From: a virus | Virus record (IMG/VR): IMGVR_UViG_3300031485_000046 | Strand: one strand, 5' to 3' | Length of the DNA stretch: 64,000 nucleotides | Shown: one piece after another, positions 17,533 to 62,292 of the stretch | Position numbering within the stretch: the stretch's first letter is position 1 | Layout of the letters: each line of letters begins with the position of its first letter | Program-made: the position numbers and the translations under genes | The notes under the pieces: model-generated | What the model was told of the DNA's origin: nothing | What the model saw: the letters and a program-made list of their open reading frames with translations, nothing else | Databases searched by the model: none

Positions 17533-17574
17533 AATTACACAATAGAGCATAATTGATAGCAATTGAATAGAAAA

Positions 17575-18674: not shown

Positions 18675-18893
18675 TCATTTCGCCCGCTCCTCCCAGAACC
18701 GTCTGCGTCGCTCCTCCCTGTGACGCTTGATATTCTCCCGCACCCTCTGCGTGCGGGGCGGGAACGTGTTCAGATGGGTCAGCACCGGCTCCACGCTGAC
18801 AGCTCTGCCGAATTCCCTCTCCCATTCCTGGGCGTAGATTTCCTCGTAGGATAACATTTCGCGAAATCTGAGCCCCGTGCATCGTCCGCTCAT
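18675..18893 (-). CDS. Small basic, arginine-rich protein encoded in a GC-rich patch
   Basis: ATG overlaps stop of KdsB-like gene (ATGA); local composition visibly GC-richer than surroundings. Confidence 0.4.
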   Translation of the reverse strand: MSGRCTGLRFREMLSYEEIYAQEWEREFGRAVSVEPVLTHLNTFPPRTQRVRENIKRHREERRRRFWEERAK

Positions 18894-19684
18894 TCCTTAC
18901 CCTCCTTTTTTTCTATAATTTCATCATATTCATTTTCTTTACCAGAGTTTATTATACAACGAACAGCTTCCAAATCAGCAGGAGTATCTACACTAGGTCC
19001 AACTTTTTTTGCTCTTGTTATTTCTACTTTAATGGAAAAATCATGTTCTAATATTCTGAGCTGTTCCAGTGATTCTGCTGATGCCAAAGGTGTTTGTGGC
19101 ATTTTGGCATAATAATGGATTAAGAAACGTCTAGTAAATCCATAAATTCCTATATGTCGGTAGATGGGATATACTTCTTCCGGATCTCTAATAAAAGGGA
19201 TAGGAGACCTACTGAAATATAAAGCATCTCCATTTATTCTGAATGCCACTTTTACTACCGATGGATCATTGATAGTAGCGGTATCTGTAATAAGGGCACA
19301 TATCGTAGCAGATTCCGTAGCCCTATTTTCAGTTTTATAAAATAATGATATTACTTCATCAATCATACAAGGATTAAGTAATGGTTCATCCCCTTGTATG
19401 TTTATCACTATATTATTATTAGAGAATTTTTTAGCTATTTCCACAACTCTACTAGTTCCGTTTGTATGATTTGGAGAAGTTAGCATAGCTTCTCCACCGA
19501 AATTATTTACAGCCTGCACGATTCTTTCATCGTCAGTAGCTACAATCAACCGGTCAAGTAAAGTAGATCGTGAGGCTCGCTCGTACACTCTCTGGATCAT
19601 TGTTTTTCCGCATATATCAGCTAGAGGTTTACCGGGGAGCCTTGTAGAATTGTATCTAGCGGGGATAACTCCTAAAGTTATCAT
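18890..19684 (-). CDS. kdsB: CMP-Kdo synthetase-like cytidylyltransferase (3-deoxy-manno-octulosonate cytidylyltransferase family)
   Basis: IPARYNSTRLPGKPL, VATDDE, GGE, QGDEP, ALYFSR, HIGIYGF, LEQLR, VDTPADLE match KdsB signature blocks as recalled. Confidence 0.85.
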   Translation of the reverse strand: MITLGVIPARYNSTRLPGKPLADICGKTMIQRVYERASRSTLLDRLIVATDDERIVQAVNNFGGEAMLTSPNHTNGTSRVVEIAKKFSNNNIVINIQGDEPLLNPCMIDEVISLFYKTENRATESATICALITDTATINDPSVVKVAFRINGDALYFSRSPIPFIRDPEEVYPIYRHIGIYGFTRRFLIHYYAKMPQTPLASAESLEQLRILEHDFSIKVEITRAKKVGPSVDTPADLEAVRCIINSGKENEYDEIIEKKEGKE

Positions 19685-35067: not shown

Positions 35068-35399
35068 TGGCAGAGACATTTTCCTATTCGCCTCTCTATG
35101 CGTATCAAAGAGGATTAAATCATAATGTCCTGATAACGGAGTTTGAATCAGGAAAAGAGCAACGTAAGTATTTAGGAGTTCGTGCTAGGACGTGGACACT
35201 CGGATTCCGAGCCGACGTTGCTACCATCCAGGGAATCGAGGATTTCTACAATGCCCGTGGTGGTAATTACGAGGCGTTCAACTGGACACCTCCGGGAGGA
35301 AGCGCCATTTCCGTCCGGTTTGAGGAAGGGAGCCTGTCGGTCAGTTATTACGGCTCTCAGTACGGCGAATGTGAAGTCACATTGAGGGAGATATTATGA
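35067..35399 (+). CDS. Minor tail protein M-like (lambda gpM family)
   Basis: GGNYEAFNWTPP resembles lambda gpM GGWKSFLWTPP (recalled); TAATG coupling to tape measure. Confidence 0.75.
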   Translation: MAETFSYSPLYAYQRGLNHNVLITEFESGKEQRKYLGVRARTWTLGFRADVATIQGIEDFYNARGGNYEAFNWTPPGGSAISVRFEEGSLSVSYYGSQYGECEVTLREIL

Positions 35400-35938: not shown

Positions 35939-36321
35939 TCGGTATTCCGTGGAAGACGAAAGGGCGGGACCGGGACGGGATTGACTGCGTCGGTCTAGCC
36001 CTTCTCGCGCAAAAGGAGCTGTACGGGCGGGAGTATGACTTCCCATTTGACTACGACCCGGAGACGGGGGATGAGCGCGTTTTGCTCGACTGGCTGGAAG
36101 ACATAGCTGATGAAGTGGACATACCGCAGAATGGAGACCTGGTGATTTATCGGATGCCGGGAATTGACGGGATTGTAAAACATCACATCGGTACGGTCGT
36201 TGGCGAGGCATTGTTGCACATTTATCCGGGGAAGAGTTCTCGGAAGGTGAAAATCAGGATGAAACGGATCTACAAAATCTACCGGGCGAAGGAGGTGGAG
36301 ACATGCCGGGAGCGGCAATAG
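35935..36321 (+). CDS. Tail assembly protein K-like (NlpC/P60 peptidase fold)
   Basis: GIDCVGLALL (Cys) and HHIG (His) motifs; start at internal ATG 35935. Confidence 0.7.
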   Translation: MIGIPWKTKGRDRDGIDCVGLALLAQKELYGREYDFPFDYDPETGDERVLLDWLEDIADEVDIPQNGDLVIYRMPGIDGIVKHHIGTVVGEALLHIYPGKSSRKVKIRMKRIYKIYRAKEVETCRERQ

Positions 36322-39300
36322 GGGCGCTGTTAGGATTTGCCTTGTCAGGAACTGGGCTTGGGATAGGACTTGCAGGATTCCTTGGCGTTTCAGCCGGTAC
36401 CCTCTGGATGGTTGGGGCCTCCCTCGGTTCGTTGTTCGACGGACCGGATATCGACCTTGGAGGTTCGACGCCTAATTACACATTCGGACAGCTGTCGAAT
36501 ACGAAGAGCCAAATGCTCCCCATCCCCATCGTATACGGGCGGTGCAGGGTCGGCGGGAATGTGTTCATGCAGACGTTTTACGACGATACCTTGCAGAAAA
36601 TGGATATGCTGGTCGGTGTTTCCGAAGGGCCAATCCAGTCCATAAAATCCATTTACGCCAGCGACACGGAACTGACGGATGTAAACGGTGATATTACCCA
36701 CGAATTGGAAGAGGTGACGCTGAACGTCCACCTCGGTGAACCAGGCCAGGTTGCTGACAGCCGAGACCCCAGCGGGAGCACATATGCGAATGTGGCTTAT
36801 GTGGGGCTGACGCTGAAGGCGCAGGACGGGCTATCAGGCAACCCTACCATATCGTCCATAGTGGAAGGGCGGAAGATATGGACGCCTGCTGGTACGATGT
36901 TTTCAAGGAACCCAGCGTGGATCGTCTATGACTTCCTGACCAATACCCGCTACGGCGTCGGCATTCCAACAGACCTGATCGACCTCGACTCATTCATGGC
37001 GTCCGCCGACTATTGTGACGCTCTGGTTGAGGGTGAACCTCGTTTCACACTGGATTATATCATCGACACTCAGCGACCGGCGGTGGACCATCTGCAATCC
37101 ATGCTGGCTTGTTTTAGAGGGTATTTCCTCGCCCGGGACAAGATCGAATTGCACGTGGAGCAGGCCGGGAGTGTGTACAAGGCCCTTGGGCCGGATAATT
37201 TCGTGAAGGACAGCTTCACCTGGTGGCAGAAGAGCGGCGACGATTCACCGAACAGAATCACCCTGGAGTGGATCGACCCGGACAACCATTACGAGCAGTC
37301 CTCGGCTGTGTTTGAGTATCAGGAGGATATGCAGGCTCGTGGTGTTTTTGAAAAATCATTCTCCGTGCTCGGAGTAACCCGCTCGTCCCAGGTAGGTCGG
37401 TTGGGTAATTACCTGATGGAAACAGCAAAGCGGGTACAGAATTTCTGCTCGTTCCAGGTGGGACTCCAAGATGCCGACATCGAGGCAGGGGAAATCATAT
37501 CCCTGACATATCCCGATTTTACGGGGTGGGATTCGAAACCCTTCCGGGTTGTGGCGGTGCAGGACCACGGTGATTCGGGTTTAGTTACAATCACCTGTGC
37601 GGAATATGATGCGACGGTATACGGTGATGATGCGCTGCCTGTGCAGACACCCATAGTAGACCCGACGCCCGTTACCTATGACGATGTGTACTCCCTCGCT
37701 CTTGAGGATATGGGGCATATCGCCGATGACGGGACATGGTTCCCGGTAATTCGTGCTACGTGGCAGAACCCGTCCGACTACACGCCCGCTGCACTTAACA
37801 TCCGCTGGCGATATAGCGGCGATACGGTATGGAACCTGCATCTGAACACGTCCCGGCTGACCACGCAGACCAACATTACCGGGCTGACTACCGGAGAGGA
37901 TCTGGAAGTTTGGGTTAATTGCGTTAAGCCAAATAATGGCAGGGAGACAACCGGGGCGACGGCAACGCTGTCCGTAGGACGGGATGTTACCCCTCCGGCG
38001 GCCCCAACTTCCCTTACTGCAACGGGATGGTTTGGAAGCATTAATCTGGAATGGGTGAATCCTGCTGACAGGGACCTTAGTCATATCGAGGTATGGGAAA
38101 ATGCCATTGATAACAGGGCAACCGCAGTAAAAATTGCCGAGACAAAAGGGACATCATACCAGCGGTATGTAGGGTCGTTCATTACTCGTTACTACTGGGT
38201 GCGGGCGGTTGATTTCTCAGGCAACGTGGGCGCATGGAACGCTACGGCAGGCACGGCTGGCAACTCTGACCAGAAGAACCATCAGGATTTTGTAGATTTG
38301 GTGCTACAGGAAAATCCGTATCTCGCAGAAGTACAGACAGACCTCAACTCAGCGATAGTTTTAGGCGACACAAACATTAAGACAATTGACCTGCCTGGCT
38401 ATGAGCAGAGGATAGCCAACCGCATTGATGAGGTCAACGATGACATAATGACGCAGGTCAACACGTATGCTGACGGAACTATCGATGCGATGCTTGACGC
38501 TTCCGAAGCAATAAGTGCAGTAAGAGATGCGGGGATTATTACCGATCCTGTTACGGGATTGACAAGCATTTTCGCCCTTGATGCATACAAGACAGCAAAT
38601 GACGCAAGAGTATCAAACGTTGAGATTGACCTTGATGCAGTCGAATCCACTCTTACATCTAAGGTCACTCTGGCACAGGTGGACGAGCGGATCGCAGGGG
38701 CTGTCTTCGGCGATGCAGGGGAATTGCTCCTGTCCGGCGTGGATGCACGGGTGTCGCTGGTAGAGGAGACCCTTGACGGTGTTGAGGCCGAACTTCTCGA
38801 AAAGGCAACATACGTGGAGGTGAACGAACTCGGCGGGCGAATCGGCACAGCAGAGTCAAGGTTAGACGGTCATGATGCGGAGATTGCCATGCTTGCCACG
38901 TCACAGGAACTTGACGAGGTAGAGAGCCGTGTGACAACGGCAGAGCTTAATATCGATGCCCTTGAAGGATCAATTGTCAATAAGGTTGCCAGCACGGTAA
39001 CGATTACACAAGACCAAGAGGAGCTAATAGCACAGGGCCTGGTTGATGCGATGCTAAACGACCGTGAGGCACAGACCGATGCTAAGGCAAAAACGCAGAG
39101 TGCATTAGCAATAGCGGAGTCTGAACTGTACGCCCATGTCAATGATGAGATGGAAGCAGAGGCGGGGCAGAGATTGTTGTTGGCGGCGAAAGTTGACAAT
39201 AATCAAGCGACTATCCAGAGTGAGTCTGTCGCACGAGCAAATGCTGATTCCGCCATAGCCTCTAATGTATCAACATTGTCAACCACCGTAGGGAACAACA

Positions 39301-39773
39301 CATCAGCGATACAGACAATTGACAGTTCAGTAGACGGGATTCAATCAAAACACGCCGTTAAAATCGATACAAACGGATATGTCACAGGCTATGAACTTAT
39401 CGGCACAGGCGCATCAAGCTCCATGGTGTTCCACGTTGATAATTTCCTAGTCGGCAAGCCGGGTACAACCAACAAATATCCGTTTGTAATCGGCACGGTA
39501 GACGGTGTATCGCGGGTTTCTATGGACTCGGCGTTTATACAGGATGCGGCAATCGAGAATGTGAAGATTGCAAATGCAACAATAACAAGGTTAAAAATTG
39601 AAGGACACACTCTGACTGAGGTCGCATCGTATTACGTTGCAGCAGCGAAGGATATGTTAGAGGACGCAACGTGGACTTACTACACGGATATCGACCAAAT
39701 AACAATTACAACAGAAGCGGGTTATCCAGCACCGATAACGTGGACGGCAGTGCTCAATACAGGAGCAGGGTGA
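36303..39773 (+). CDS. Host specificity/tip attachment protein J-like, with glycine-rich hydrophobic N-terminal segment
   Basis: NPAWIVYDFLTNTRYGVGIP region resembles lambda gpJ NNMAWCLWDMLTHPRYGMG (recalled); 1156 codons; RBS AAGGAGGTGGAG. Confidence 0.85.
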   Translation: MPGAAIGALLGFALSGTGLGIGLAGFLGVSAGTLWMVGASLGSLFDGPDIDLGGSTPNYTFGQLSNTKSQMLPIPIVYGRCRVGGNVFMQTFYDDTLQKMDMLVGVSEGPIQSIKSIYASDTELTDVNGDITHELEEVTLNVHLGEPGQVADSRDPSGSTYANVAYVGLTLKAQDGLSGNPTISSIVEGRKIWTPAGTMFSRNPAWIVYDFLTNTRYGVGIPTDLIDLDSFMASADYCDALVEGEPRFTLDYIIDTQRPAVDHLQSMLACFRGYFLARDKIELHVEQAGSVYKALGPDNFVKDSFTWWQKSGDDSPNRITLEWIDPDNHYEQSSAVFEYQEDMQARGVFEKSFSVLGVTRSSQVGRLGNYLMETAKRVQNFCSFQVGLQDADIEAGEIISLTYPDFTGWDSKPFRVVAVQDHGDSGLVTITCAEYDATVYGDDALPVQTPIVDPTPVTYDDVYSLALEDMGHIADDGTWFPVIRATWQNPSDYTPAALNIRWRYSGDTVWNLHLNTSRLTTQTNITGLTTGEDLEVWVNCVKPNNGRETTGATATLSVGRDVTPPAAPTSLTATGWFGSINLEWVNPADRDLSHIEVWENAIDNRATAVKIAETKGTSYQRYVGSFITRYYWVRAVDFSGNVGAWNATAGTAGNSDQKNHQDFVDLVLQENPYLAEVQTDLNSAIVLGDTNIKTIDLPGYEQRIANRIDEVNDDIMTQVNTYADGTIDAMLDASEAISAVRDAGIITDPVTGLTSIFALDAYKTANDARVSNVEIDLDAVESTLTSKVTLAQVDERIAGAVFGDAGELLLSGVDARVSLVEETLDGVEAELLEKATYVEVNELGGRIGTAESRLDGHDAEIAMLATSQELDEVESRVTTAELNIDALEGSIVNKVASTVTITQDQEELIAQGLVDAMLNDREAQTDAKAKTQSALAIAESELYAHVNDEMEAEAGQRLLLAAKVDNNQATIQSESVARANADSAIASNVSTLSTTVGNNTSAIQTIDSSVDGIQSKHAVKIDTNGYVTGYELIGTGASSSMVFHVDNFLVGKPGTTNKYPFVIGTVDGVSRVSMDSAFIQDAAIENVKIANATITRLKIEGHTLTEVASYYVAAAKDMLEDATWTYYTDIDQITITTEAGYPAPITWTAVLNTGAG

Positions 39774-39794
39774 AACGTTACTTTCGGGGCAAGG

Positions 39795-40004
39795 TTGCTC
39801 CGTAACGGTGTAGTAATCAACACAAGGGACGCTTTTTATTACTCTTTATATCAAGGGATGTCTCCGGTTGTTTTTAGTTTTGTTGATACAGGGGCATCGA
39901 CAGGATCAACTACTTATAAGATACAGGTTAAGCGGGTTCGGTCTCTGGACTGTCATGTTTCGGCATCGGAGAGGACGATGGTGGTTCATTATGCCTACAG
40001 ATAG
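39795..40004 (+). CDS. Hypothetical small protein
   Basis: TTG start, weak RBS. Confidence 0.3.
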   Translation: MLRNGVVINTRDAFYYSLYQGMSPVVFSFVDTGASTGSTTYKIQVKRVRSLDCHVSASERTMVVHYAYR

Positions 40005-40350
40005 GGGAACATGGTTTACGTATTATTCTCAAAACGGGGAGATTTACGGGAGCTATTCAAATACACGCGAGAACATGCTGATTGACCTAGCTGACAAGTC
40101 ATACATCGAAGCACCCGACAATGACATTGACATCAGCAATAAATATGTAGACAACGGAGAAGTTAAAATCAGACCTAACATGAACCTTGCCATTATTGGA
40201 GGGGTAATCACGGGCATACCGCAGGGCGCAACGGTCACACTGGGCGAGCAGTCTTTTACTGTCGATGATGGGGAAGCTGACATCGAGGGATATACAGGGA
40301 TAGTTAAAATAACATGCTGGCCCTATCTTGATGCGGAGGTGACGCTATGA
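39991..40350 (+). CDS. Hypothetical protein
   Basis: Internal ATG 39991 overlapping upstream stop. Confidence 0.5.
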   Translation: MPTDRGTWFTYYSQNGEIYGSYSNTRENMLIDLADKSYIEAPDNDIDISNKYVDNGEVKIRPNMNLAIIGGVITGIPQGATVTLGEQSFTVDDGEADIEGYTGIVKITCWPYLDAEVTL

Positions 40351-40541
40351 AAATAAACTACAAGCCGACCTCTGCGGAGGTGCGGAAAAAACGCAAAGAG
40401 GACTATCTGCAACGCTTCCCGGTTGAACGGCAGTTGGAAGCCCTCACGGAAGCGGCATCGGGCAGACCGGAAAAACTGAATGAACTCATGCAGGGCCTCG
40501 CTGAAATACGCAGGGCCTTGCCATTTGCGAAGGAGGAATGA
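40347..40541 (+). CDS. Hypothetical small protein
   Basis: ATGA coupling. Confidence 0.5.
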   Translation: MKINYKPTSAEVRKKRKEDYLQRFPVERQLEALTEAASGRPEKLNELMQGLAEIRRALPFAKEE

Positions 40542-41947
40542 ATTTGAGCTGGTATAGAACAGGTACCGTAGCCGTAACAAACGGAAGTAAGACAGTCACA
40601 GGAGTAGGTACGTTGTGGACAACGGCAGTCAATGCTGGTGACGCTTTCGCCCTTGTTGACGCAAATCTAAACCCGACTGATGCATGGTATGAGGTGGAGT
40701 CCGTCACGAACAATACGACTCTGGTGCTGAAGCAGAGTTACGCCGGGACAACCGGGAGCAATAATCAATATTGTGTATTTAACATGGTCGGCAACATGAC
40801 CACGCCGTCATTTGCTCAGAGGTTGGCTACGTTCTTCGCATCCTTCCAGAGTTTGATCGACAAGCCGACGACCACACCTACGGCATCCAGCATCCCGGTT
40901 GCGGACTCCGGCGGGAAAATCGCCGACGGATGGGTTCCTGACACTATAGCACGTCTCGCCTCACCAGCACTCACTGGCTCCCCCACAGCCCCCACGCAGT
41001 CAGCGAGCGATGATAGCACGAAGATTGCCACGACTGCGTTTGTGAAGGATCAGGTGGCATCGGAGACTGTTGCCGGAATGGTTGAACTCGCCACGTCAGC
41101 AGAGGTTTTAGCAGGGGAGGATACAGAAAGGGCGGTAACACCTGCGGGCTTAAAAGCGGGATTAGAAGCATCTTACGCTATCTTTGACTCTGACCGCATT
41201 TATGATGGCGTGAACCTCGAAACCAAGTTTGCCGCTGAGATAGCGGGATATACAGATGTTTGGGCATGGATAAAGGCACGTATTGCAGCAGGAGATTACA
41301 GTGGTCTGCATGTCGGTGATTACGTCCAGTTTACGGTAGGGTCTGATACGGTTCAAGCTCAGATTGCAGGAATGGATACGTATTATAGGACTGGAGACTC
41401 CCCACTCGGTCACCACATTGATTTTATCTCTAGGGATTGCCTGACGGCAACATATCAATGGAATACAACAGGCAACAACAACGGCAACTCATCTAATCCA
41501 TCTCCGTGGATGGTGTCTGCACTCAAAGCAAGCCTTGACGGACTTGTAACAAGCCTCCCAGCGGGGTTGCAGTCTGTTGTGGTTACAAAACGAGCATTTA
41601 TTGAAACACGATATACAAGTGGGTCAACGTTGATTGACTCGACATCGTGGGCTTGGAACAACATGGGCAAGTTGTGGGTTCCGTCTGAGTTCGAGGTTTT
41701 TGGCACTATAGTTTGGGGGACACGTGGATACAGTAATAACGGCGGGGTGCAGTATCCTATTTTTGGGAACTCATGGAAAAACAGGATGAAAGGCGCAGGG
41801 CATAACGGGGAGCGCACCGTCTGGTGGTTGTCTTCCGTCTATAGTGGCAATTCTGAGTCATGTTGCAATGTCGGCAACGGCGGGATTATCGGCCGCAGTA
41901 ACGCATCCGACGCTTATAGGGTGCCGCTCTGCTTCCGAATATCGTAG
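40538..41947 (+). CDS. Side tail fibre protein
   Basis: SDDSTKIATTAFVKDQV motif typical of tail fibres; RBS AGGAGG. Confidence 0.8.
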   Translation: MNLSWYRTGTVAVTNGSKTVTGVGTLWTTAVNAGDAFALVDANLNPTDAWYEVESVTNNTTLVLKQSYAGTTGSNNQYCVFNMVGNMTTPSFAQRLATFFASFQSLIDKPTTTPTASSIPVADSGGKIADGWVPDTIARLASPALTGSPTAPTQSASDDSTKIATTAFVKDQVASETVAGMVELATSAEVLAGEDTERAVTPAGLKAGLEASYAIFDSDRIYDGVNLETKFAAEIAGYTDVWAWIKARIAAGDYSGLHVGDYVQFTVGSDTVQAQIAGMDTYYRTGDSPLGHHIDFISRDCLTATYQWNTTGNNNGNSSNPSPWMVSALKASLDGLVTSLPAGLQSVVVTKRAFIETRYTSGSTLIDSTSWAWNNMGKLWVPSEFEVFGTIVWGTRGYSNNGGVQYPIFGNSWKNRMKGAGHNGERTVWWLSSVYSGNSESCCNVGNGGIIGRSNASDAYRVPLCFRIS

Positions 41948-41953
41948 GAGGTG

Positions 41954-42478
41954 ATGGATATGAACGACATGGAGTACAACAATGCTGTACAGATACTGCG
42001 ACAAACGGATTATGTCGCGCTGAAGCTCGCAGAGGGCGCAGACCCTCTCGAATATGCCGAGGTCTTAAAACTCCGTCAATCGTGCCGAGATAAAATTAAC
42101 GATTGGAACGGAGAAGATTTCATCGCACCGACATTTGAGGATTTGAGAAACAGAAAATATCGGGAAATCTCACAGGCCCACAAGGAGCATGTGGCAGGAA
42201 GCATCATGACATCCCTCGGCTTCCCCATGCAGTTCGACATGAAGGACAATCTCATGGTGGAAGGAACCATAAAACTGGCACAGGCAAGCGGAGCAACTAC
42301 AATTTACCTGACTGACGCAGAGGATGTCACTCATTACGACATCCCTCTTGCAGACGCACAGGCCGTGTTGCTTGAGATGAGTACTGCATTTGCACAGGCT
42401 CATGCTAAAAAACAGACGCTTCGGGAGCGGACAGCAGAAGCACAGACCCAGAGCGATCTGGACAAGATAAGCTGGTAG
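41954..42478 (+). CDS. Tail fibre assembly protein (Tfa-like)
   Basis: Position immediately after tail fibre; RBS AGGAGGTG; start ambiguous (41954 or 41960). Confidence 0.6.
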   Translation: MDMNDMEYNNAVQILRQTDYVALKLAEGADPLEYAEVLKLRQSCRDKINDWNGEDFIAPTFEDLRNRKYREISQAHKEHVAGSIMTSLGFPMQFDMKDNLMVEGTIKLAQASGATTIYLTDAEDVTHYDIPLADAQAVLLEMSTAFAQAHAKKQTLRERTAEAQTQSDLDKISW

Positions 42479-45957: not shown

Positions 45958-46428
45958 TCAGACACCTGTACTTCCAAAACCACCCGCACCTCTATCAGTA
46001 TCCGTGAGGGAATTTACATACTCATTAAGCGCATGAACTACTGGAACCACAACAGCTTGGGCGATTCTGTCACCATGCTCAATAATAATGTCTGGATCAG
46101 TTATCCACCCCGCATGTTCAATCAATACCTTTATTTCACCGCGGTAATCAGAATCAATAGTGCCTGGGGCGTTTGGAATCCTTAGTTTTGTAGTAAATGA
46201 CAGTCCTGATCTTGGGCGTATTTGCATTTCACAGCCTTCAGGTATTTCTACTGCAAGTCCTGTGGGAATAGCTTTAATCTGCCCAGGTTTTACCGTTATA
46301 TTCCCGTCAGGGTACAGGAAAGGATCTGCTAGACATGCTTTTAGATCCATCCCGCTTGCTCCTACAGACATATACTTAGGTGAAGTAGCTGCAGGGTCAA
46401 GCAGTTTCCACTTCAGGATAACAGTCAT
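45958..46428 (-). CDS. dut: dUTP diphosphatase
   Basis: Motifs RSGL, GTIDSDYRGE, GAGGFGSTG. Confidence 0.85.
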   Translation of the reverse strand: MTVILKWKLLDPAATSPKYMSVGASGMDLKACLADPFLYPDGNITVKPGQIKAIPTGLAVEIPEGCEMQIRPRSGLSFTTKLRIPNAPGTIDSDYRGEIKVLIEHAGWITDPDIIIEHGDRIAQAVVVPVVHALNEYVNSLTDTDRGAGGFGSTGV

Positions 46429-46439: not shown

Positions 46440-47090
46440 TTATCTAATCTGGAATGTTTTTGTAAATCCGTTTCTACTTTTGCACCATCCTACTAGCCAA
46501 TAACAAAATGGTGTATCACTCAATGCGATCAATATTTTAACAACCCACTGGCTCATTATCATGGAAAATAAAACAGGCATGGGCATAATTCCATAAAATG
46601 CAATAACGATAAAGATTACCGTATCGAAAAACTGGCTAGATATGGTACCTACGTTATTTCTAAGCCACAAATGTTTTCCATGTGTTAAATCCTTTAGCTT
46701 ATGAAATACCCATACATCATTCAGCTGGCTGACAAGATAAGCAGTCAATGAAGCTCCAGTAATCCTACCAACTCTTCCAAAGAGTTCTGTAAAGAATTCC
46801 TGCCTCTCATAGAAAGGAGCGGCGGGAAGCATAACAGCGATAAACCCTAGTGACATAGCAAGCAGACTACAAAAGAATCCTGCCCATACAACCCTTGTAA
46901 CTACTTTCTTACCCCATACCTCTCCAATCACATCAGTCATAAGAAAAGTAATTGGGTATGCGATAACACCTGCTGGTAGAATGAAATCCCCAAACATAAA
47001 CAGTTTTGTTGCCAATACGTTTGCAGTTACCAACGATGTCACAAATACTGCAACCAGTGTGATGAATGTTCTTGGAATCTTGAGTTCCAT
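46440..47090 (-). CDS. YhhQ/VUT-family queuosine-precursor transporter
   Basis: Multi-pass membrane protein; YPITFLMTDVIGEVWG, LTAYLVSQLNDVWVFHKLK, FFDTVIFIVIAF align with recalled E. coli YhhQ blocks. Confidence 0.7.
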   Translation of the reverse strand: MELKIPRTFITLVAVFVTSLVTANVLATKLFMFGDFILPAGVIAYPITFLMTDVIGEVWGKKVVTRVVWAGFFCSLLAMSLGFIAVMLPAAPFYERQEFFTELFGRVGRITGASLTAYLVSQLNDVWVFHKLKDLTHGKHLWLRNNVGTISSQFFDTVIFIVIAFYGIMPMPVLFSMIMSQWVVKILIALSDTPFCYWLVGWCKSRNGFTKTFQIR

Positions 47091-47105
47091 GCTGATACTC
47101 CTCCC

Positions 47106-47714
47106 TTAGATTACGGTACTTCGTCTTTTTCTGTTCTGTATCTGAAATACTTTATCCGCCGATTCAATCAAAGCATCAGAATGGGTAATCATGATAATTT
47201 GTAATCCGAGTTTGTCTGATACCTGTTTTAGCATCTCACTTGCTTTAGGTAGCAATCCTTCAGAAAGATTCTTGAATGGTTCATCCAGTAACAGCACATT
47301 CCGAGTTTTTGGCCGTTGCATAGACCATGATGCAACCCTAAGCGCAAAACTAGCTACATCTACTGCACCACCTCCAGACGCTGATAAAGGATCTATCACC
47401 TGCTTTCCTCGTTGAAACATCAGATCACATTCAGTCTTACCTCTCCTTTGCACAAATTCTACCAACATACTGTATGGATCATCAAATACAGAATCAAGTG
47501 CCATCGAAACCGTATCTGCTATATGGTACTGCAACGATTGTTGTGTTTTCAATCCTACTTCCTTTACTACCGCTATCGCTTGTTCGTGCTTTCTTATTTC
47601 TCGGTGTGTTTCTGCTAATCCTTGTTTGGCAGTTTCTAATGACTGTTCAAGCTGTTCTTTCTGCCCTTTCAATCGTTCAAGCTGGATTCGCAATTGCCTT
47701 ATCTCATTTTTCAT
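47106..47714 (-). CDS. SbcC/Rad50-like ATPase, C-terminal half
   Basis: Signature-like LSASGGGAVD, Walker B LLLDEP, H-loop ITHS, preceded by coiled coil. Confidence 0.75.
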   Translation of the reverse strand: MKNEIRQLRIQLERLKGQKEQLEQSLETAKQGLAETHREIRKHEQAIAVVKEVGLKTQQSLQYHIADTVSMALDSVFDDPYSMLVEFVQRRGKTECDLMFQRGKQVIDPLSASGGGAVDVASFALRVASWSMQRPKTRNVLLLDEPFKNLSEGLLPKASEMLKQVSDKLGLQIIMITHSDALIESADKVFQIQNRKRRSTVI

Positions 47715-47982: not shown

Positions 47983-48271
47983 TCATATAGTTTTGGTACC
48001 GCCTACAATGGTCCTTTTTAACACAAGTATGGAAGCATATTTGAGCCGCAACCATACATTCTCTTGCAGTACACCACAAGAATTCTGTTTCATGCAAAGC
48101 AGCCAATTCCTCGAATCGTTTCATTCTGTTTCTGCTCAATACTTTAGGTTTTTCCCCGAATACCCACTGTCGAATCATAGGAGGATTAATTGTGCCGTTT
48201 ACGGGAACTTCAACAATTCCTTTAGGTTTTTTTAGGAATTTACGAGTTTTCTTCTTAGCATACTTTTTCAT
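47948..48271 (-). CDS. Small Cys-rich basic protein
   Basis: ATGA overlap with SbcD stop. Confidence 0.45.
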   Translation of the reverse strand: MKKYAKKKTRKFLKKPKGIVEVPVNGTINPPMIRQWVFGEKPKVLSRNRMKRFEELAALHETEFLWCTARECMVAAQICFHTCVKKDHCRRYQNYMNGCDKDGNSLL

Positions 48272-49170
48272 AGCACTTCACCATCCATCGCTTTATGGAT
48301 AAGTGATATAACTGATTTTCTTAGTTTATTGGTTGAAAGAAATTCCCTTAGATTGTCTTCGAATGACAATGACACATTCCAGTCCTCCTTCAGGCGTGAT
48401 ATAAATGCTTCCATCCGCATATCTCTTTCTGCCTTTACCTCAAGATGTTCCTTTGTAATCACATCTGTCTTTATTGGTAGATATTCTGCGGTTACACTAT
48501 TTGTTTCAGCAAACCATAAATATACCCTAGGTTTGTGTTCCGCCTGATCCGCAGTTTGTCTTGTGATAGATCCAGGATTTACTAGCAATCTATCTTTATA
48601 TTTTACCACAAAAGGTGTATGGTTGTCACCTGTCAATATTAATTTATACTTAGAAAATTTTCTAAGTATTTGCTCCGCAGTAGGATCTGTACATCCTAGC
48701 CATGGTTTATTGCCTGTATATGTAAACTTGTGCCATACAGCAACATTTTCAAATGCACTACCTGCTAGTAGTTCTGAAATAGCCTCATTGGGTTTTTCTT
48801 CCCCCCAATGCCCATTTCTTAAAACTGTAATGTTATGTGCTGTACTTAAAGTATACATCCCAGACCGTTGTGCAAGTTCCATATTATGTTGTGGCAAATC
48901 GTGATTCCCGTATACCGTTAAAAAAGCAGGACCATTTTTGAATTCAGAAAACTGGTTGAAAAATGATATTGATGCAGAGAGTAAATAGGGTGATGTTTTC
49001 CATGTATGGAATAAATCTCCAGCATGGATAACAGGGCAACCATACTTTCTTTGCAATTCCATAATATAGTTCGCTTTTATCCATTGGGATTCCCAAAAAT
49101 TATCAGTACGGCAGATTGGTTGTGTGTCTCTCAAATGCCAATCTGCCGTAAGAATTGCCGTAGGTTTCAT
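48268..49170 (-). CDS. SbcD/Mre11-like nuclease (calcineurin-like phosphoesterase)
   Basis: Motifs TADWHL, GDLFH, GNHD, GDNH. Confidence 0.85.
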   Translation of the reverse strand: MKPTAILTADWHLRDTQPICRTDNFWESQWIKANYIMELQRKYGCPVIHAGDLFHTWKTSPYLLSASISFFNQFSEFKNGPAFLTVYGNHDLPQHNMELAQRSGMYTLSTAHNITVLRNGHWGEEKPNEAISELLAGSAFENVAVWHKFTYTGNKPWLGCTDPTAEQILRKFSKYKLILTGDNHTPFVVKYKDRLLVNPGSITRQTADQAEHKPRVYLWFAETNSVTAEYLPIKTDVITKEHLEVKAERDMRMEAFISRLKEDWNVSLSFEDNLREFLSTNKLRKSVISLIHKAMDGEVL

Positions 49171-50219
49171 TTCTTACCTCCTTTTTTACTGCCGCATAAA
49201 GGACAAGTATCTGGAAATAGCGCATCAAACTTTTCCTGAAGTTTATTAGTTTCTTGCACTATATTATACATATCCTCGTCATTTTCCTTTATGTTTGTGA
49301 AAAGAAGGTATACATCTTTTTTATTATCGTAAAGTGTTCTTAGGTTTTGAAACAATTCAATAGCATTGTCTACTTGCGTTTCCTTAATAGGAAATGCTTC
49401 AAGTTTTTTTAATGCTTGTGATACTGCTTTTATTTCTGAAACAATGTCTGAAGCTCGAAGGAAAGTGTGTTCCAGTTGCGTTTTTTCTTCACGCAAAGTA
49501 AAATACTCCGTTACTTTTTTATCTATAGCAAAAAGAGGTTCAAATTCTTCCATTTGTAAATCAACCTCTTCTATGACATCAATAATCCTACTCAATTCCA
49601 TCAGGTCTTTGTCAAGTTTCTCTATCCTATTTTGAAGTTTCTCCGCACGGATAATTTTCTTTTCCATTTCAGAAATATGATTAAACTTAATAAGGGAATT
49701 TTCATATTCCTCTATTTTGCTTTCGTATACCCGTACATCCTGATTTAATTGCCTTTGCCACGATGCAAGTGTTTTCATTGTAGCATCAATAATGTCTAGG
49801 TGTGCGATCCTATTAAAATGAGCCGCTACCTCACCTGCACTAGAATCAAGTAAAAAGGGTCGGTCAAACTGCTGTTGCAGATTTACCTCGTCAATATTAA
49901 GGATTCGCACAACATCATCGGGAACATCTGTTTTGATAGCAGTCAGCTTGCTACCGTTTATTGTGTACCCATGTCCGCTATCATGTTTCCAACGGGTAAT
50001 CTCGTTATCAGGTACTTGAATAGTAACAGAAGTATCTCCGCCCCAGTCAGAACGAAAAGCATCTCCTAAGGGTCTATTCCAAATAACCCATCGTAATGCT
50101 CTTAGGATAGCAGTCTTGCCAGAGTCTGAGGGGCCAATGATAGCATTGACCCCTGCTTCAAACTCGAATTGGCTTTTCGTATGTGACTGGAAATTTCTTA
50201 GCTCCACTCGCTCAATCAT
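49167..50219 (-). CDS. SbcC/Rad50-like ATPase, N-terminal half with coiled coil and C-terminal CxxC hook
   Basis: Walker A GPSDSGKT; long coiled coil; CPLCG. Confidence 0.8.
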   Translation of the reverse strand: MIERVELRNFQSHTKSQFEFEAGVNAIIGPSDSGKTAILRALRWVIWNRPLGDAFRSDWGGDTSVTIQVPDNEITRWKHDSGHGYTINGSKLTAIKTDVPDDVVRILNIDEVNLQQQFDRPFLLDSSAGEVAAHFNRIAHLDIIDATMKTLASWQRQLNQDVRVYESKIEEYENSLIKFNHISEMEKKIIRAEKLQNRIEKLDKDLMELSRIIDVIEEVDLQMEEFEPLFAIDKKVTEYFTLREEKTQLEHTFLRASDIVSEIKAVSQALKKLEAFPIKETQVDNAIELFQNLRTLYDNKKDVYLLFTNIKENDEDMYNIVQETNKLQEKFDALFPDTCPLCGSKKGGKK

Positions 50220-60204: not shown

Positions 60205-61176
60205 TTATATAGTGAATAATCCTTTGCTTACTTGGAATTGAACTCCTTTGCGATATTCATTCACCCATTGCTCTAATCCTAGAATGTATCGGATGTTAAT
60301 TTCACAACGAACATCAAAGGATTGAATCTCATCATACGTGTACCCATCATCTTCAATCTGTTTTAATTTCCGAGGTGTAAGTACACCCATTCCTTTACTA
60401 GACCGTTGCTTCGATACACAAAACACCATCGGTTGCTTTGAATAATCAGGATTCTTGAATCCACCGATAGGGTACATGATAGAACCCCACGCGGCAACTA
60501 TTCTCCAAGTAGCGGCATCAGCACTAGTAAAAGGTAGCGTTTTCAGCACGGGCAACATCCATACTGCAAATCCGTGTGTTTTAACACGGATTCTATTTAT
60601 ATGGATGTAAGAAAATACTGACCGCATCCAAGATAGCCTAGATTGGACACTCATATCGTTTGCAGGTGACACTCCGATATAGTCAGTAAGTTCTACCATT
60701 TTGTGCAACCATTCCCAATCTTCTCCTTGATGGAAGACATGAATAGGAGTGATCCCTGCATCTTTCATCCTAAGAAGATTTTCGTATCCTTTCGCGGCCG
60801 CTGTATTGATAATTTTCTTATTCTCCGCAGTCTTCACTCGATTGAGATGTGTAGAAGTACCAGGAGAACCGGGGATCACATCGAGGTTGACTACCCTCAA
60901 CTTTTTATTATCATCCGCCGCTATTTGGATTGCCTCTTTAGCATAACTAATGTAGGCGTCAATGGGAATAGAATGACCTTTAGCCCATGCTGAAAACGCA
61001 CCTGAATCAAGAATGATGTTTCCATTTAATGTAGGAACTTGTCTGCACCATTCTTTAAGCTGTTTTGGATAGAGATAAGAAACCAGTCTGTTCGTAATCC
61101 GCCTGTTGAGTTCCTTACCGCGTTCTTCCTTAGGATTAAAAACAGGACCGGCAAAATACAAACGGACTGGCTTCAT
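60205..61176 (-). CDS. dpdA: DpdA-like tRNA-guanine transglycosylase-family protein (7-deazaguanine DNA transglycosylase candidate)
   Basis: ILDSGAF motif resembling TGT catalytic DSGGFQ; no zinc subdomain; adjacent to queF and queC. Confidence 0.65.
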   Translation of the reverse strand: MKPVRLYFAGPVFNPKEERGKELNRRITNRLVSYLYPKQLKEWCRQVPTLNGNIILDSGAFSAWAKGHSIPIDAYISYAKEAIQIAADDNKKLRVVNLDVIPGSPGTSTHLNRVKTAENKKIINTAAAKGYENLLRMKDAGITPIHVFHQGEDWEWLHKMVELTDYIGVSPANDMSVQSRLSWMRSVFSYIHINRIRVKTHGFAVWMLPVLKTLPFTSADAATWRIVAAWGSIMYPIGGFKNPDYSKQPMVFCVSKQRSSKGMGVLTPRKLKQIEDDGYTYDEIQSFDVRCEINIRYILGLEQWVNEYRKGVQFQVSKGLFTI

Positions 61177-61178: not shown

Positions 61179-61604
61179 TCAGTTACCTGTTCCGTCGTAC
61201 TCGGCAATCACCGAAATATCAGTACCACCTCTGCGATTGAAATTAGCCTCTATTCGCATGTGGTACGGTTTGCAAGCGTTCGACAGATCGTCCAGTATTT
61301 TGTTTGTAACAGACTCCATAAACGCTCCGTGCTGACGATATGCTCCCATGTATATCTTGAGTGCTTTCGTTTCCAAACAAAAATCCTTTGGAAAGTATCG
61401 AATCGTGATAGTGCCAAAATCAGGATTTCCTGTACGCGGACACAGACTGGAAAATTCCGTGAATACGAACTCCGTGGCGTATTGCCTGTCTTTGCACGGA
61501 TTATCAAATACTTCAAGAAGAGCTGGATCTGGATTATTGTACCTGTCGTACGGTACGACTGTTCCGAGGTTTTTCAGATGGTCTACATTCACTTTTCTAT
61601 CCAT
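61179..61604 (-). CDS. queF: NADPH-dependent 7-cyano-7-deazaguanine reductase QueF
   Basis: EFSSLCPRTGNPDFGT (catalytic Cys motif) and ETKALKIYM (QueF motif); start ATG 61602-61604 with GAGGAGGG RBS. Confidence 0.85.
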   Translation of the reverse strand: MDRKVNVDHLKNLGTVVPYDRYNNPDPALLEVFDNPCKDRQYATEFVFTEFSSLCPRTGNPDFGTITIRYFPKDFCLETKALKIYMGAYRQHGAFMESVTNKILDDLSNACKPYHMRIEANFNRRGGTDISVIAEYDGTGN

Positions 61605-62292
61605 TGTTTGCACCCTCCTCATAGAATACTGGGTCGATCAGATTGTTTTCTGCAAAGGCCTCAAGGCGTTCATAACAACTTCCACATTTTCCGCAAGGAT
61701 TCGGTTGGTTCTTGTAACAAGTTCTTGTAAGGTGATATGGTGCGTTATTTGCAATACCATACTGCACTATCTGACTTTTAGACATGTGAAGGAACGGTGC
61801 AAGTATATTCACATTTCTATCCGTACCAAGATAAATCGCTGTATCCATTGCTTTATGAAATTCTGGGCGACAATCAGGGTAAATAGCATGATCGCCTCTA
61901 TGAATTCCTATAGCAATATTCTCTATACCTTTTGACCACGCCATACCGGCTAGGATCGACAGGAACACTAGATTACGAGCAGGTACCACCGTCTGACTCA
62001 TATTCGATGATTCATAGTGTCCTTCCGGTATTTCTCCACCGCTTAGAAGCAGACTAGATTCCATTCCAGTAAATGCTCCGGACAGGTCTACAACTTCGTA
62101 GGTCAATTCGCAAGGAACGGCAGACACATAATATTTCAATACTGCGTCTGCCGCTCTTCGTTCGTACACATTGTGTTTGCTACCGTACTGGAAATTTACA
62201 CAATGGATTTTCTTGAATTCCTTGCGAATAAGCCAAGCAAGAACTGTTGCAGAATCCAGTCCTCCTGAGAAAGAAAGGACTGCGGAACGCAT
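61597..62292 (-). CDS. queC: 7-cyano-7-deazaguanine synthase QueC
   Basis: PP-loop SFSGGLDS; C-terminal CGKCGSC; start at ATG 62290-62292 (longer ORF-track N-terminus rejected). Confidence 0.85.
   Translation of the reverse strand: MRSAVLSFSGGLDSATVLAWLIRKEFKKIHCVNFQYGSKHNVYERRAADAVLKYYVSAVPCELTYEVVDLSGAFTGMESSLLLSGGEIPEGHYESSNMSQTVVPARNLVFLSILAGMAWSKGIENIAIGIHRGDHAIYPDCRPEFHKAMDTAIYLGTDRNVNILAPFLHMSKSQIVQYGIANNAPYHLTRTCYKNQPNPCGKCGSCYERLEAFAENNLIDPVFYEEGANNG

What the first reader, a model, noticed from the sequence alone, without database searches (positions are those of the whole stretch)
46440..47090. Phage-encoded YhhQ-type queuosine-precursor transporter
A multi-pass membrane protein matching YhhQ/VUT-family blocks lies 13 kb from the queC/queF/dpdA module. 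It would let the infected cell import preQ0/preQ1 or related bases, a salvage route compatible with the missing early biosynthesis genes. A transporter dedicated to a DNA-modification precursor is an unusual phage auxiliary gene.
Basis: partly seen in the sequence, partly recalled or inferred. Interest (0 to 1): 0.55.

Follow-up and report, generated by a model that had tools for sequence, protein, structure and literature searches.

The report
Phage-encoded queuosine-precursor (QPTR/YhhQ) transporter
A phage that chemically disguises the guanines in its DNA carries its own membrane importer for the building block of that disguise; the gene is real and well conserved, but this kind of phage gene has been described before.

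Summary
The ORF at 46440..47090 (-) is real: 216 aa with a strong ribosome-binding site. It is a clear member of the QPTR/YhhQ family (Pfam Vut_1 E=1.7e-53; TIGR00697 164 bits against a cutoff of 51). The model shows a six-helix, ECF-S-component-like fold and all family-invariant residues are present. QueC, unimodular QueF and DpdA lie 13.1 kb away on the same strand. An independent assembly closes the window into a 64,611-bp circle, and the only missing 611 bp lie inside dnaB, so the absence of FolE, QueD and QueE is genome-wide.

The gene is under purifying selection (dN/dS about 0.15-0.18) and keeps its slot between sbcC-C and dut across diverged relatives. Its nearest cellular relatives (60-63% identity) sit in a PreQ1-riboswitch-queF-QPTR salvage operon on Synergistota-like contigs; the phage copy has no riboswitch. 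In IMG/VR, 43 of 53 dereplicated viral QPTR clusters have a 7-deazaguanine gene within 10 kb, usually dpdA directly adjacent.

Phage YhhQ genes were reported in 2019, one was deleted in phage CAjan in 2020, and they are annotated in MS1, CDKM15 and phiFN37. This is a new member of a known kind. Transport itself is untested.

The parts
46440..47090 (-). QPTR/YhhQ-family (Vut_1) transporter gene, 216 aa, six predicted transmembrane helices
   Evidence: ORF. Pfam PF02592 E=1.7e-53. TIGR00697 164 bits, above cutoff 51. phrog_4899. Family-invariant residues intact. AF2 model pLDDT 88.9. dN/dS 0.15-0.18.
47098..47107 (-). Shine-Dalgarno sequence AAGGGAGGAG, 7 nt upstream of the ATG, overlapping the stop codon of the upstream sbcC-C gene. 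The intergenic gap is only 15 nt, which leaves no room for a riboswitch.
   Evidence: Sequence read. No Rfam family anywhere in the window.
47106..47714 (-). Upstream neighbour: C-terminal half of an SbcC/Rad50-like ATPase. It defines the conserved slot of the QPTR gene.
   Evidence: SMC_N C-terminal match. The same neighbour is found in L005-L008, L169, L170 and L172.
45958..46428 (-). Downstream neighbour: dUTPase, starting 11 nt after the QPTR stop, with its own strong SD
   Evidence: Pfam dUTPase E=1.9e-22. Sequence. Conserved neighbour in L005-L008 and L172.
60205..61176 (-). DpdA (DNA 7-deazaguanine transglycosylase), 323 aa, the predicted consumer of the imported base
   Evidence: phrog_887 'queuine tRNA-ribosyltransferase' E=1e-41. 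24-31% identity to annotated DpdA of Dp-1, MS1, Iggy and CAjan, with the LDSGAFSA motif conserved. No Pfam or NCBIfam hit.
61179..61622 (-). Unimodular QueF (preQ0 to preQ1 reductase), 141-147 aa depending on the start codon
   Evidence: PF14489 E=4.5e-29. TIGR03139 143 bits, above cutoff 86.9. Aligns to B. subtilis QueF 4F8B with the Cys, Asp and Glu conserved, and F-H-E replaced by F-M-E.
61597..62292 (-). QueC (CDG to preQ0 synthase), 231 aa
   Evidence: PF06508 E=5.8e-56. TIGR00364 170.9 bits, above cutoff 150.3. SGGLDS PP-loop motif. C-terminal Cys cluster read in the ORF translation.

Best explanation
The gene encodes a stand-alone secondary importer of the QPTR (YhhQ/COG1738, Vut_1) family. 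It is expressed as part of the long leftward replication and nucleotide-metabolism transcription unit of a roughly 64.6-kb phage whose host is probably a member of Synergistota. Once inserted into the membrane of the infected cell, it brings in free 7-deazaguanine bases from the environment, most likely preQ0 and/or preQ1. The phage QueF reduces preQ0 to preQ1. The phage QueC can additionally convert any host-made CDG to preQ0. The phage DpdA then swaps the base for guanine in phage DNA, giving dPreQ1 (or dPreQ0) and protecting the DNA from restriction. The gene appears to derive from a host-lineage salvage operon (PreQ1 riboswitch-queF-QPTR). It has lost the riboswitch, so import is no longer shut off by preQ1. 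Shown here: family membership, fold, integrity, purifying selection, genomic association with dpdA and que genes, genome-wide absence of folE/queD/queE, and sister relationship to the riboswitch-controlled bacterial operon. Inferred: transport activity, the substrate, the modification product, the host, and how much the phage depends on import.
For: Family membership. All 30 invariant alignment columns are retained, including ITFLMTDVIGEVWGK, LWLRNNxST and DTPFCY. Confident six-helix model. The best solved folds are ECF S-components PanT, BioY and RibU, probability 0.98-1.0. The best viral models are Vut proteins, TM 0.78-0.82. Selection: dN/dS 0.15-0.18 between close relatives, and pN 0.09-0.30 with saturated pS at greater divergence. 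Slot conservation down to 68% identity. Partner enzymes: QueC, QueF and DpdA. Genome-wide lack of FolE/QueD/QueE: Pfam, six-frame HMMs, and circular closure. Guilt by association: 55 of 80 viral loci have dpdA within 10 kb, median gap 0 bp, 54 of 55 on the same strand; 43 of 53 dereplicated clusters have a 7-deazaguanine gene nearby. Eight of eight sampled HMM calls were confirmed by PHROGs. Nearest cellular relatives, 60-63% identical, sit in a PreQ1-I riboswitch-queF-Vut_1 operon. The phage clade (95% bootstrap) is sister to that group (87%). Host phylum: the named top hits of the phage KdsB and of the bacterial contig's DeaD are both mainly Synergistota. PMC11130926 predicts that most Synergistales salvage preQ0/preQ1. 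Literature: E. coli QPTR imports preQ0 and preQ1 (PMC5372724, PMC11130926). Phage QueF proteins are true reductases and the DpdAs of QueF-encoding phages insert preQ1 (PMC10516641). Dp-1, whose relative MS1 has Vut_1 beside DpdA, carries dPreQ1 (MS1 layout).
Against: No transport assay exists for this protein or for any phage QPTR. In phage CAjan, deleting the (very divergent) yhhQ left preQ0 modification unchanged (PMC7544227), so such genes can be dispensable, at least when the full pathway is present and the medium is rich. QPTR substrate range varies: C. trachomatis QPTR transports queuine only (PMC11130926). No residue-level specificity rules are published, so the substrate is inferred from context alone. 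The score to the E. coli-type equivalog NF008406 is far below its cutoff (56.8 against 252). The retained QueC has no obvious substrate if the host truly lacks QueD and QueE, so the simple 'import replaces early synthesis' picture is incomplete. The gene lies 13 kb from dpdA, unlike the adjacent arrangement in most phages. The host assignment rests on best named hits at 50-59% identity only.
Confidence: 0.72

Rival explanations
1. The transporter imports a different 7-deazaguanine species from preQ0/preQ1. One candidate is CDG (or ADG), which would feed the otherwise orphan phage QueC. Another is queuine.
For: QueC is retained although FolE, QueD and QueE are absent genome-wide. In 9 of 53 dereplicated viral QPTR clusters a QueC gene lies within 10 kb of QPTR with no early genes in that range, sometimes directly adjacent (0-4 bp) (identity of QueC confirmed). 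QPTR specificity is known to shift between family members (PMC11130926). CDG is mentioned in the YhhQ paper only as a pathway intermediate, and no CDG transport test appears in the passages retrieved.
Against: The nearest cellular relatives are controlled by a preQ1 riboswitch and paired with QueF, which points to preQ0/preQ1. Queuine would be useless to QueC, QueF or any characterised DpdA. No QPTR has been shown to carry CDG. The 10-kb flank limit means early genes could lie further away in those viral contigs.
Confidence: 0.13
2. The importer mainly serves translation rather than DNA. It would raise queuosine levels in host tRNA during infection to tune decoding of phage genes.
For: Hutinet 2019 describes 48 phages with preQ0-pathway genes but no DpdA and proposes they may boost the Q precursor. 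10 of 53 viral QPTR clusters show no 7-deazaguanine gene within 10 kb. QPTR's native cellular role is tRNA-Q salvage (PMC5372724).
Against: This genome encodes DpdA. Most viral QPTR genes abut dpdA on the same strand. No tgt, queA, queG or queH was found in the window. Three of the 10 'no partner' clusters are this phage's own clade, where the module simply lies 13 kb away.
Confidence: 0.07
3. The gene is a functional but largely redundant accessory, a backup that makes no measurable difference under most conditions, as in phage CAjan.
For: The CAjan ΔyhhQ mutant had wild-type modification (PMC7544227). The presence of QueC suggests the host supplies CDG, so a biosynthetic route may exist in parallel.
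Against: There is strong purifying selection. The gene is at least as well conserved as its neighbours; for example, in L008 QPTR is 77% identical against dUTPase 51% and SbcD 62%. Unlike CAjan, this phage lacks FolE, QueD and QueE. The likely host phylum is predicted to depend on salvage.
Confidence: 0.06
4. The membrane protein has a role unrelated to transport, for example superinfection exclusion or lysis timing.
For: Small phage membrane proteins often have such roles. No biochemical data exist for this protein.
Against: It is a full-length match to a transporter family with every invariant residue retained. Its fold matches substrate-capture S-components. It lies in the nucleotide-metabolism operon, not in the lysis cassette at 42.5-43.9 kb.
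Confidence: 0.02

Closest known systems
E. coli YhhQ / QPTR (COG1738, PF02592; Zallot et al. 2017, PMC5372724)
   Same: Same Pfam and TIGR family, about 220 aa, six transmembrane helices, works without an ECF module, and imports the Q precursors preQ0 and preQ1.
   Different: Only distantly related: NF008406 scores 56.8 bits against a cutoff of 252. The phage copy is phage-encoded, has no riboswitch or PurR context, and is predicted to feed DNA rather than tRNA modification.
Bacterial PreQ1-riboswitch-queF-QPTR operon on Synergistota-like contigs (L167, L171)
   Same: These are the closest cellular homologs (60-63% identity) and the sister clade (87% bootstrap). QPTR is paired with a unimodular QueF, the logic of preQ0 salvage.
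   Different: The bacterial copy is riboswitch-controlled and sits among metabolic genes. The phage copy has no riboswitch, is separated from its QueF by 14 kb, and its QueF is only 34% identical to the bacterial one, so it was acquired separately.
Streptococcus phages MS1 / Dp-1 (Vut_1 'membrane protein' gp5 next to DpdA gp6)
   Same: A phage-encoded Vut_1 protein in a 7-deazaguanine module that also has QueC and DpdA, followed by DnaN, dUTPase, RecA and a clamp loader. Dp-1 encodes a QueF-family protein and its DNA contains dPreQ1.
   Different: MS1 carries the full FolE-QueD-QueE-QueC set, and its Vut_1 directly abuts dpdA. It shares only 29% identity with the window protein. The host is Gram-positive.
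Escherichia phage CAjan gp41 'putative preQ0 transporter' (Kot et al. 2020, PMC7544227)
   Same: A phage yhhQ-like gene inside a dpdA/que cluster with a similar PolA-clamp-dpdA-queC-helicase layout. It is the only phage QPTR-like gene tested genetically.
   Different: 159 aa and very divergent (hhalign probability 25%). CAjan has the full preQ0 pathway and no QueF, and modifies its DNA with dPreQ0. Deletion had no effect on modification.
Clostridium phage CDKM15 gp79 and Fusobacterium phage phiFN37 CDS0144 ('queuosine precursor transporter')
   Same: The best cultured-phage matches (50-51% identity), annotated as QPTR, lying within about 450 bp of a TGT/DpdA gene and lacking preQ0 synthesis genes in the fetched flanks.
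   Different: These are independent acquisitions: CDKM15 groups with Peptostreptococcus in the tree. phiFN37 carries an integrase and CDKM15 has a lambdoid-type replication module. No QueC or QueF lies nearby.
ECF-transporter S-components (PanT 4RFS/6ZG3, BioY 4DVE, RibU 5KBW)
   Same: The best solved-structure fold matches: a six-helix substrate-capture protein of the VUT superfamily.
   Different: Only 10-16% identity and TM 0.4-0.5. S-components normally dock onto an EcfT/EcfAA' module. QPTR proteins act alone, and no ECF genes are present in the phage.

Membership tests
QPTR / YhhQ (Pfam PF02592 Vut_1; COG1738; TIGR00697) | Profile match above curated thresholds over the whole domain | tested here: met
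   PF02592 181.5 bits (cutoff 27.2), profile positions 1-151 of 152. TIGR00697 164 bits (cutoff 50.95).
QPTR / YhhQ (Pfam PF02592 Vut_1; COG1738; TIGR00697) | Integral membrane protein of about 200-230 aa with six transmembrane helices | tested here: met
   216 aa, GRAVY +0.77. The AF2 model (pLDDT 88.9) has long helices at 7-26, 45-59, 61-87, 97-135, 141-165 and 171-206. Fold matches ECF S-components and viral Vut proteins (TM 0.82).
QPTR / YhhQ (Pfam PF02592 Vut_1; COG1738; TIGR00697) | Retention of family-conserved residues | tested here: met
   In a 22-sequence alignment spanning 45-97% identity, all 30 invariant and 20 near-invariant columns are retained in the window protein.
QPTR / YhhQ (Pfam PF02592 Vut_1; COG1738; TIGR00697) | Genomic association with queuosine / 7-deazaguanine genes | tested here: met
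   QueC, QueF and DpdA are in the same genome and on the same strand. 43 of 53 viral clusters are associated with such genes. The bacterial sister clade lies next to queF.
QPTR / YhhQ (Pfam PF02592 Vut_1; COG1738; TIGR00697) | Transport of preQ0, preQ1 or queuine | not testable with these tools
   Needs complementation of E. coli ΔqueD ΔyhhQ, or uptake assays.
E. coli-type YhhQ equivalog (NCBIfam NF008406 / PRK11212) | Score above the equivalog cutoff | tested here: not met
   56.8 bits against a cutoff of 252. It belongs to the family but not to the E. coli orthologous subgroup.
preQ1-riboswitch-regulated Q-salvage operon | PreQ1 riboswitch upstream of the transporter or operon | tested here: not met
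   No Rfam family in the window at gathering score, and only a 15-nt gap upstream. By contrast, RF00522 is present above gathering score upstream of queF-QPTR in L167 and L171.
Phage 7-deazaguanine DNA-modification system (DpdA-based) | DpdA DNA transglycosylase | tested here: met
   phrog_887 E=1e-41. Matches annotated DpdA of Dp-1, Iggy and CAjan, with LDSGAFSA conserved.
Phage 7-deazaguanine DNA-modification system (DpdA-based) | Complete preQ0 synthesis set FolE-QueD-QueE-QueC | tested here: not met
   Only QueC is present. No GTP_cyclohydroI, PTPS or radical-SAM QueE hit in any ORF. The genome is closed except for 611 bp inside dnaB.
Phage 7-deazaguanine DNA-modification system (DpdA-based) | NADPH-dependent QueF, which predicts dPreQ1 | tested here: met
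   TIGR03139 143 bits, above cutoff 86.9. The Cys, Asp and Glu of B. subtilis QueF are conserved. The His of the F-H-E triad is Met, but it is also absent (Y-Q-E) in the bacterial QueF of L167.
Phage 7-deazaguanine DNA-modification system (DpdA-based) | 7-deazaguanine actually present in virion DNA | not testable with these tools
   Needs LC-MS/MS of phage DNA or modification-aware long-read data.

The most novel reading that the evidence does not exclude
In a host phylum that cannot make preQ0 itself (Synergistota are predicted salvagers), this phage's anti-restriction DNA modification would depend entirely on 7-deazaguanines scavenged from the surrounding microbial community through its own riboswitch-free importer. 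That would make phage defence evasion conditional on community cross-feeding. The importer might have broadened to carry CDG or ADG so that the otherwise orphan phage QueC has a substrate, which would be a substrate not yet known for any QPTR.
Probability: 0.2. Interest if true: 0.6.

Novelty: new member of a known kind. Interest (0 to 1): 0.3.

Why it matters
The finding adds a well-documented example, complete genome included, of a phage pairing a precursor importer with a truncated 7-deazaguanine pathway (QueC, QueF and DpdA without FolE, QueD or QueE). It also shows where the importer came from: the nearest cellular relatives are in a riboswitch-controlled host-lineage salvage operon, and the phage copy has shed that control. 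If the importer is essential here, DNA hypermodification and restriction evasion in this phage lineage would depend on exogenous Q precursors, linking phage fitness to micronutrient exchange in anaerobic communities. It also points to a probable Synergistota phage. None of this overturns current understanding, because phage-encoded YhhQ/QPTR is already in the literature.

Tried and rejected
- Megablast of 8 kb around the gene against 50,697 phage records found nothing, so there is no close cultured relative.
- Sequence search of the PDB with QPTR and with DpdA gave no useful hit. The afdb50 fold library was unavailable.
- tRNA scan and Rfam scan of the window found nothing.
- The promoter and terminator scan around the gene was no richer than shuffled sequence, so there is no evidence for an independent transcription unit.
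It missed the 60-63% bacterial relatives later found through the look-up of encoding contigs.
- The listing of cluster members gave no organism names for the bacterial contig.
- My first crude gene caller picked spurious plus-strand ORFs at 61.3-63.3 kb and hid QueC and QueF. A PP-loop motif search and the ORF listing fixed this.
- Prophage or host contamination was rejected: the circular map consists entirely of phage genes.
- A decaying pseudogene was rejected: invariant residues are intact and dN/dS is low.
- Co-acquisition of QueF with QPTR from the bacterial operon was rejected: the two QueFs are only 34% identical.
- DpdM or DpdN in the 196-aa ORF next to DpdA was not supported: it has no family hit.
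- The 294-aa ORF next to QueC in L173 was not confirmed as DpdA.

Full report
OBSERVATION. The ORF reported at 46440..47090 exists exactly as stated, on the minus strand: ATG start, 216 aa. A strong Shine-Dalgarno sequence (AAGGGAGGAG, 47107..47098) lies 7 nt before the ATG and overlaps the stop codon of the upstream gene. The downstream dUTPase gene starts 11 nt after the stop and has its own SD. The gene therefore sits inside a tightly packed run of minus-strand genes from about 64 kb down to 43.9 kb. These encode DnaB, QueC, QueF, DpdA, sliding clamp, UDG-exonuclease, PolA, clamp loader, SSB-like protein, RecA/UvsX, SbcC-N, SbcD, SbcC-C, QPTR, dUTPase, a 3D-domain protein, dNMP kinase and ThyX. 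Consensus promoter and terminator scans around the gene are no richer than shuffled sequence, so nothing indicates a separate transcription unit.

FAMILY. The protein matches Pfam Vut_1 (PF02592) at E=1.7e-53 over the entire profile. It matches NCBIfam TIGR00697 'queuosine precursor transporter' at 164 bits against a cutoff of 51, and PHROG 4899. It does not reach the E. coli-type equivalog NF008406 (56.8 against 252 bits), so it is a family member but not an ortholog of the E. coli subgroup. In an alignment with 21 homologs spanning 45-97% identity, every invariant column is retained. An AlphaFold2 model is confident (pLDDT 88.9, pTM 0.83) and consists of six long helices. No family member has a solved structure by sequence search. 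The best solved folds are ECF-transporter S-components (PanT, BioY, RibU; Foldseek probability 0.98-1.0, TM 0.4-0.5), consistent with the VUT superfamily classification quoted in PMC5372724. The best predicted viral structures are Vut proteins (TM 0.78-0.82).

CONTEXT CLAIMS. The queC/queF/dpdA module is real:
- QueC, 61597..62292: TIGR00364 170.9 bits, above cutoff 150.3.
- QueF, 61179..61622: TIGR03139 'preQ1 synthase' 143 bits, above cutoff 86.9.
- DpdA, 60205..61176: a 323-aa ORF with no Pfam or NCBIfam hit that matches phrog_887 'queuine tRNA-ribosyltransferase' at E=1e-41. It is 24-31% identical to annotated DpdA proteins of phages Dp-1, MS1, Iggy and CAjan, with the LDSGAFSA motif conserved.

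QueF aligns to B. subtilis QueF (4F8B) with the nucleophile Cys, the Asp and the Glu conserved. The His of the F-H-E triad is Met, but that His is also missing in a bacterial QueF examined here.

No FolE, QueD or QueE domain occurs in any coding-strand ORF of 70 aa or more (Pfam), or in any six-frame ORF of 60 aa or more searched with local HMMs seeded from phage CAjan.

This absence is genome-wide. A 100%-identical, independently assembled 60.6-kb contig (Logan SRR34859213_1977) joins window position 1 to position 64000 through 611 bp that lie inside a 512-aa dnaB gene. The window in turn spans that contig's own gap (window 14887-18867). Together they give a circular map of 64,611 bp.

IS THE GENE FUNCTIONAL AND STABLE? 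A clade of relatives from 98% down to about 57% identity exists in metagenomes and IMG/VR. Between close relatives dN/dS is 0.15-0.18. At greater divergence non-synonymous differences stay at 0.09-0.30 while synonymous sites are saturated. In contigs whose QPTR is 68-97% identical, the gene keeps its slot after sbcC-C. dUTPase follows it in L005-L008 and L172, while in L169 and L170 a short ORF follows and ThyX lies further downstream in L169. The neighbouring genes have often diverged more; for example, in L008 QPTR is 77% identical, dUTPase 51% and SbcD 62%. This is a long-resident, selected gene of this phage lineage.

LINK TO DNA MODIFICATION. I collected 80 IMG/VR loci encoding QPTR relatives and searched them with iterated local HMMs for DpdA, QueC, QueF, FolE, QueD and QueE.
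- 55 of 80 loci have a DpdA-like ORF within 10 kb. The median gap is 0 bp and 54 of the 55 are on the same strand.
- After dereplication at 90% identity, 43 of 53 clusters have at least one 7-deazaguanine gene nearby: 28 with DpdA only, 7 with QueC only, 2 with DpdA plus QueC, and 6 with early genes.
- Three of the ten clusters without any such gene are this phage's own clade, where the module simply lies beyond the 10-kb flank.
- A PHROG check confirmed 8 of 8 sampled HMM calls.

Cultured examples show the same arrangement. CDKM15 and phiFN37 have QPTR within about 450 bp of a TGT/DpdA gene. MS1 has QueC-QueD-QueE-FolE-Vut_1-DpdA-DnaN. CAjan has a divergent 159-aa 'preQ0 transporter' inside its dpdA/que cluster.

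ORIGIN AND LIKELY SUBSTRATE. Relatives at 60-63% identity (P0063, P0055) are not viral. They lie among metabolic genes on bacterial contigs, immediately downstream of a unimodular queF. A PreQ1-I riboswitch (RF00522) scores above its gathering threshold and ends 8 nt before queF in both contigs. That is the signature of a preQ0/preQ1 salvage operon, as described for yhhQ in PMC5372724.

In a bootstrapped neighbour-joining tree the phage clade is monophyletic (95%) and sister to this bacterial group (87%). The C. difficile phage CDKM15 copy pairs with a Peptostreptococcus sequence, which indicates independent captures by different phages. The phage QueF is only 34% identical to the bacterial operon's QueF, so it was not co-acquired.

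The window has no Rfam match at all, and there are only 15 nt upstream of the gene, so riboswitch control is absent in the phage.

Two independent lines point to Synergistota. The phage's KdsB (CMP-Kdo synthetase, 18890..19684) has named best hits that are all Synergistota. The DeaD helicase on the bacterial contig has named hits that are almost all Synergistota. PMC11130926 states that most Synergistales are predicted to salvage preQ1/preQ0. Host assignment remains an inference from hits at 50-59% identity.

MECHANISM. The most likely sequence of events is as follows. The phage expresses the importer together with its replication genes. The importer brings in preQ0 and/or preQ1. QueF reduces preQ0 to preQ1; phage QueFs have been shown to be genuine reductases (PMC10516641). 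DpdA inserts the base into DNA; DpdA from a QueF-encoding phage inserts preQ1 and, less efficiently, preQ0 and CDG (same paper). QueC would convert any host-derived CDG to preQ0. Only family membership, fold, integrity, selection, association and evolutionary origin are shown here. Transport, substrate, product and host are inferred.

One loose end remains. QueC is retained without QueD or QueE, which makes sense only if the host supplies CDG or if CDG/ADG is imported. QueC lies near QPTR without early genes in 9 of 53 viral clusters. This keeps open a CDG-import reading that no published experiment retrieved here addresses.

COMPARISON WITH WHAT IS KNOWN, AND NOVELTY. Phage YhhQ homologs were noted by Hutinet et al. 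[quoted passage not shown] A CAjan ΔyhhQ mutant kept wild-type preQ0 modification (Kot et al. 2020).

In 50,697 GenBank phage records, 12 carry a homolog detectable with this protein and 75 carry the divergent CAjan type. That is about 0.17% in total: rare, but recurrent and already annotated. A 91%-identical protein is already labelled 'queuosine precursor transporter' in NCBI, on a 3-kb contig binned to a Methanomethylophilaceae MAG. Since proteins 68-97% identical sit on phage contigs, that contig is probably a mis-binned phage fragment.

The finding is therefore a new member of a known kind. Three things are new relative to the cited literature: the documented genome-wide 'late pathway plus importer' genotype, the derivation from a riboswitch-controlled bacterial salvage operon, and the probable Synergistota host. 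These are incremental points rather than surprises.

VERDICT. Interest is about 0.3.

Noticed in passing
window 1-249 and 63322-64000; L004 10662-12200: The two window ends are the two ends of one 512-aa dnaB gene. An independent 60.6-kb assembly supplies the missing 611 bp, and the window spans that assembly's own gap. The genome therefore maps as a 64,611-bp circle and the window is 99% of it.
   Followed up: yes
window 18890-19684 (-), 26264-26977 (+), 27575-28813 (+), 28795-29526 (+): The phage encodes a full-length KdsB (CMP-Kdo synthetase, 287 bits to PRK05450). Embedded between the capsid and tail genes are an ORF with a weak MptE/Maf-like hit, a 412-aa protein with a methyltransferase domain, and a sulfotransferase-family protein. 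Together these look like a possible virion glycosylation or sugar-decoration cassette.
   Followed up: partly
window 18890-19684; L167: The named best hits of the phage KdsB, and those of the bacterial contig carrying the nearest cellular QPTR, are mostly Synergistota. This suggests the phage infects a Synergistota host.
   Followed up: partly
window 55511-57355 (-): The family-A DNA polymerase is interrupted by an intein (Intein_splicing and PT-HINT hits at residues about 189-308). The upstream ORF 57319-58590 fuses a UDG-superfamily domain to the 3'-5' exonuclease domain.
   Followed up: no
window 49167-50219, 48268-49170, 47106-47714 (all -): The SbcC/Rad50-like ATPase is split. The N-terminal half (350 aa) and the C-terminal half (202 aa) are separate ORFs, with the SbcD/Mre11 nuclease and two small coiled-coil ORFs between them. 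The arrangement is conserved in related contigs.
   Followed up: partly
window 13715-18600: An AT-rich stretch (GC 0.33-0.35) with few credible ORFs and several tandem-repeat arrays: 120 bp x2.2 at 14751-15016, 7 bp x7.3 at 15745-15795, 67-69 bp x3 at 16019-16262, and 22 bp x2.7 at 17751-17810. The independent assembly broke at both edges of this region (14886 and 18868). It may be an origin, packaging or regulatory region.
   Followed up: partly
window 62294-63211 (-): A 305-aa protein between dnaB and queC has a long Asp/Glu-rich acidic tract and a Lys/Ala-rich basic C-terminal tail. It has no credible family hit (only a weak sub-threshold Pfam Nop14 match from the acidic tract). It is conserved in the Logan contig. 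Function unknown.
   Followed up: no
window 61179-61622 (-), QueF residues about 101-103: The phage QueF has F-M-E where B. subtilis QueF has F-H-E. The Cys, Asp and Glu are conserved. A bacterial unimodular QueF (L167) has Y-Q-E at this position, so the His is not universal. The effect on activity is unknown.
   Followed up: partly
L014, L020, L023, L009, L015, L076, L078, L029, L035: In 9 of 53 dereplicated viral QPTR clusters a QueC gene lies within 10 kb of QPTR (sometimes 0-4 bp away) with no FolE, QueD or QueE in that range. This is a recurrent 'QueC plus importer' pattern whose logic (CDG import?) is unexplained.
   Followed up: partly
P0004 (NCBI MDD3399315.1): A 91%-identical QPTR on a 3,089-bp contig is assigned to a Candidatus Methanomethylophilaceae archaeon MAG. 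Because proteins 68-97% identical lie on phage contigs, this is probably a phage fragment mis-binned into an archaeal MAG.
   Followed up: partly
window 34000-42000: The tail-tip and fibre region (tape measure end, the 1156-aa Phage-tail_3 protein, and the 469-aa fibre-like ORF) has GC 0.49-0.55, against about 0.40 for the rest of the genome. This suggests mosaic acquisition of the host-recognition module.
   Followed up: no
window 5015-5608 (-): The phage encodes a small protein with a sigma-70 region 2 hit in the early/replication block, next to a DnaG-like primase and an SNF2-family helicase with an N-terminal DUF6011.
   Followed up: no
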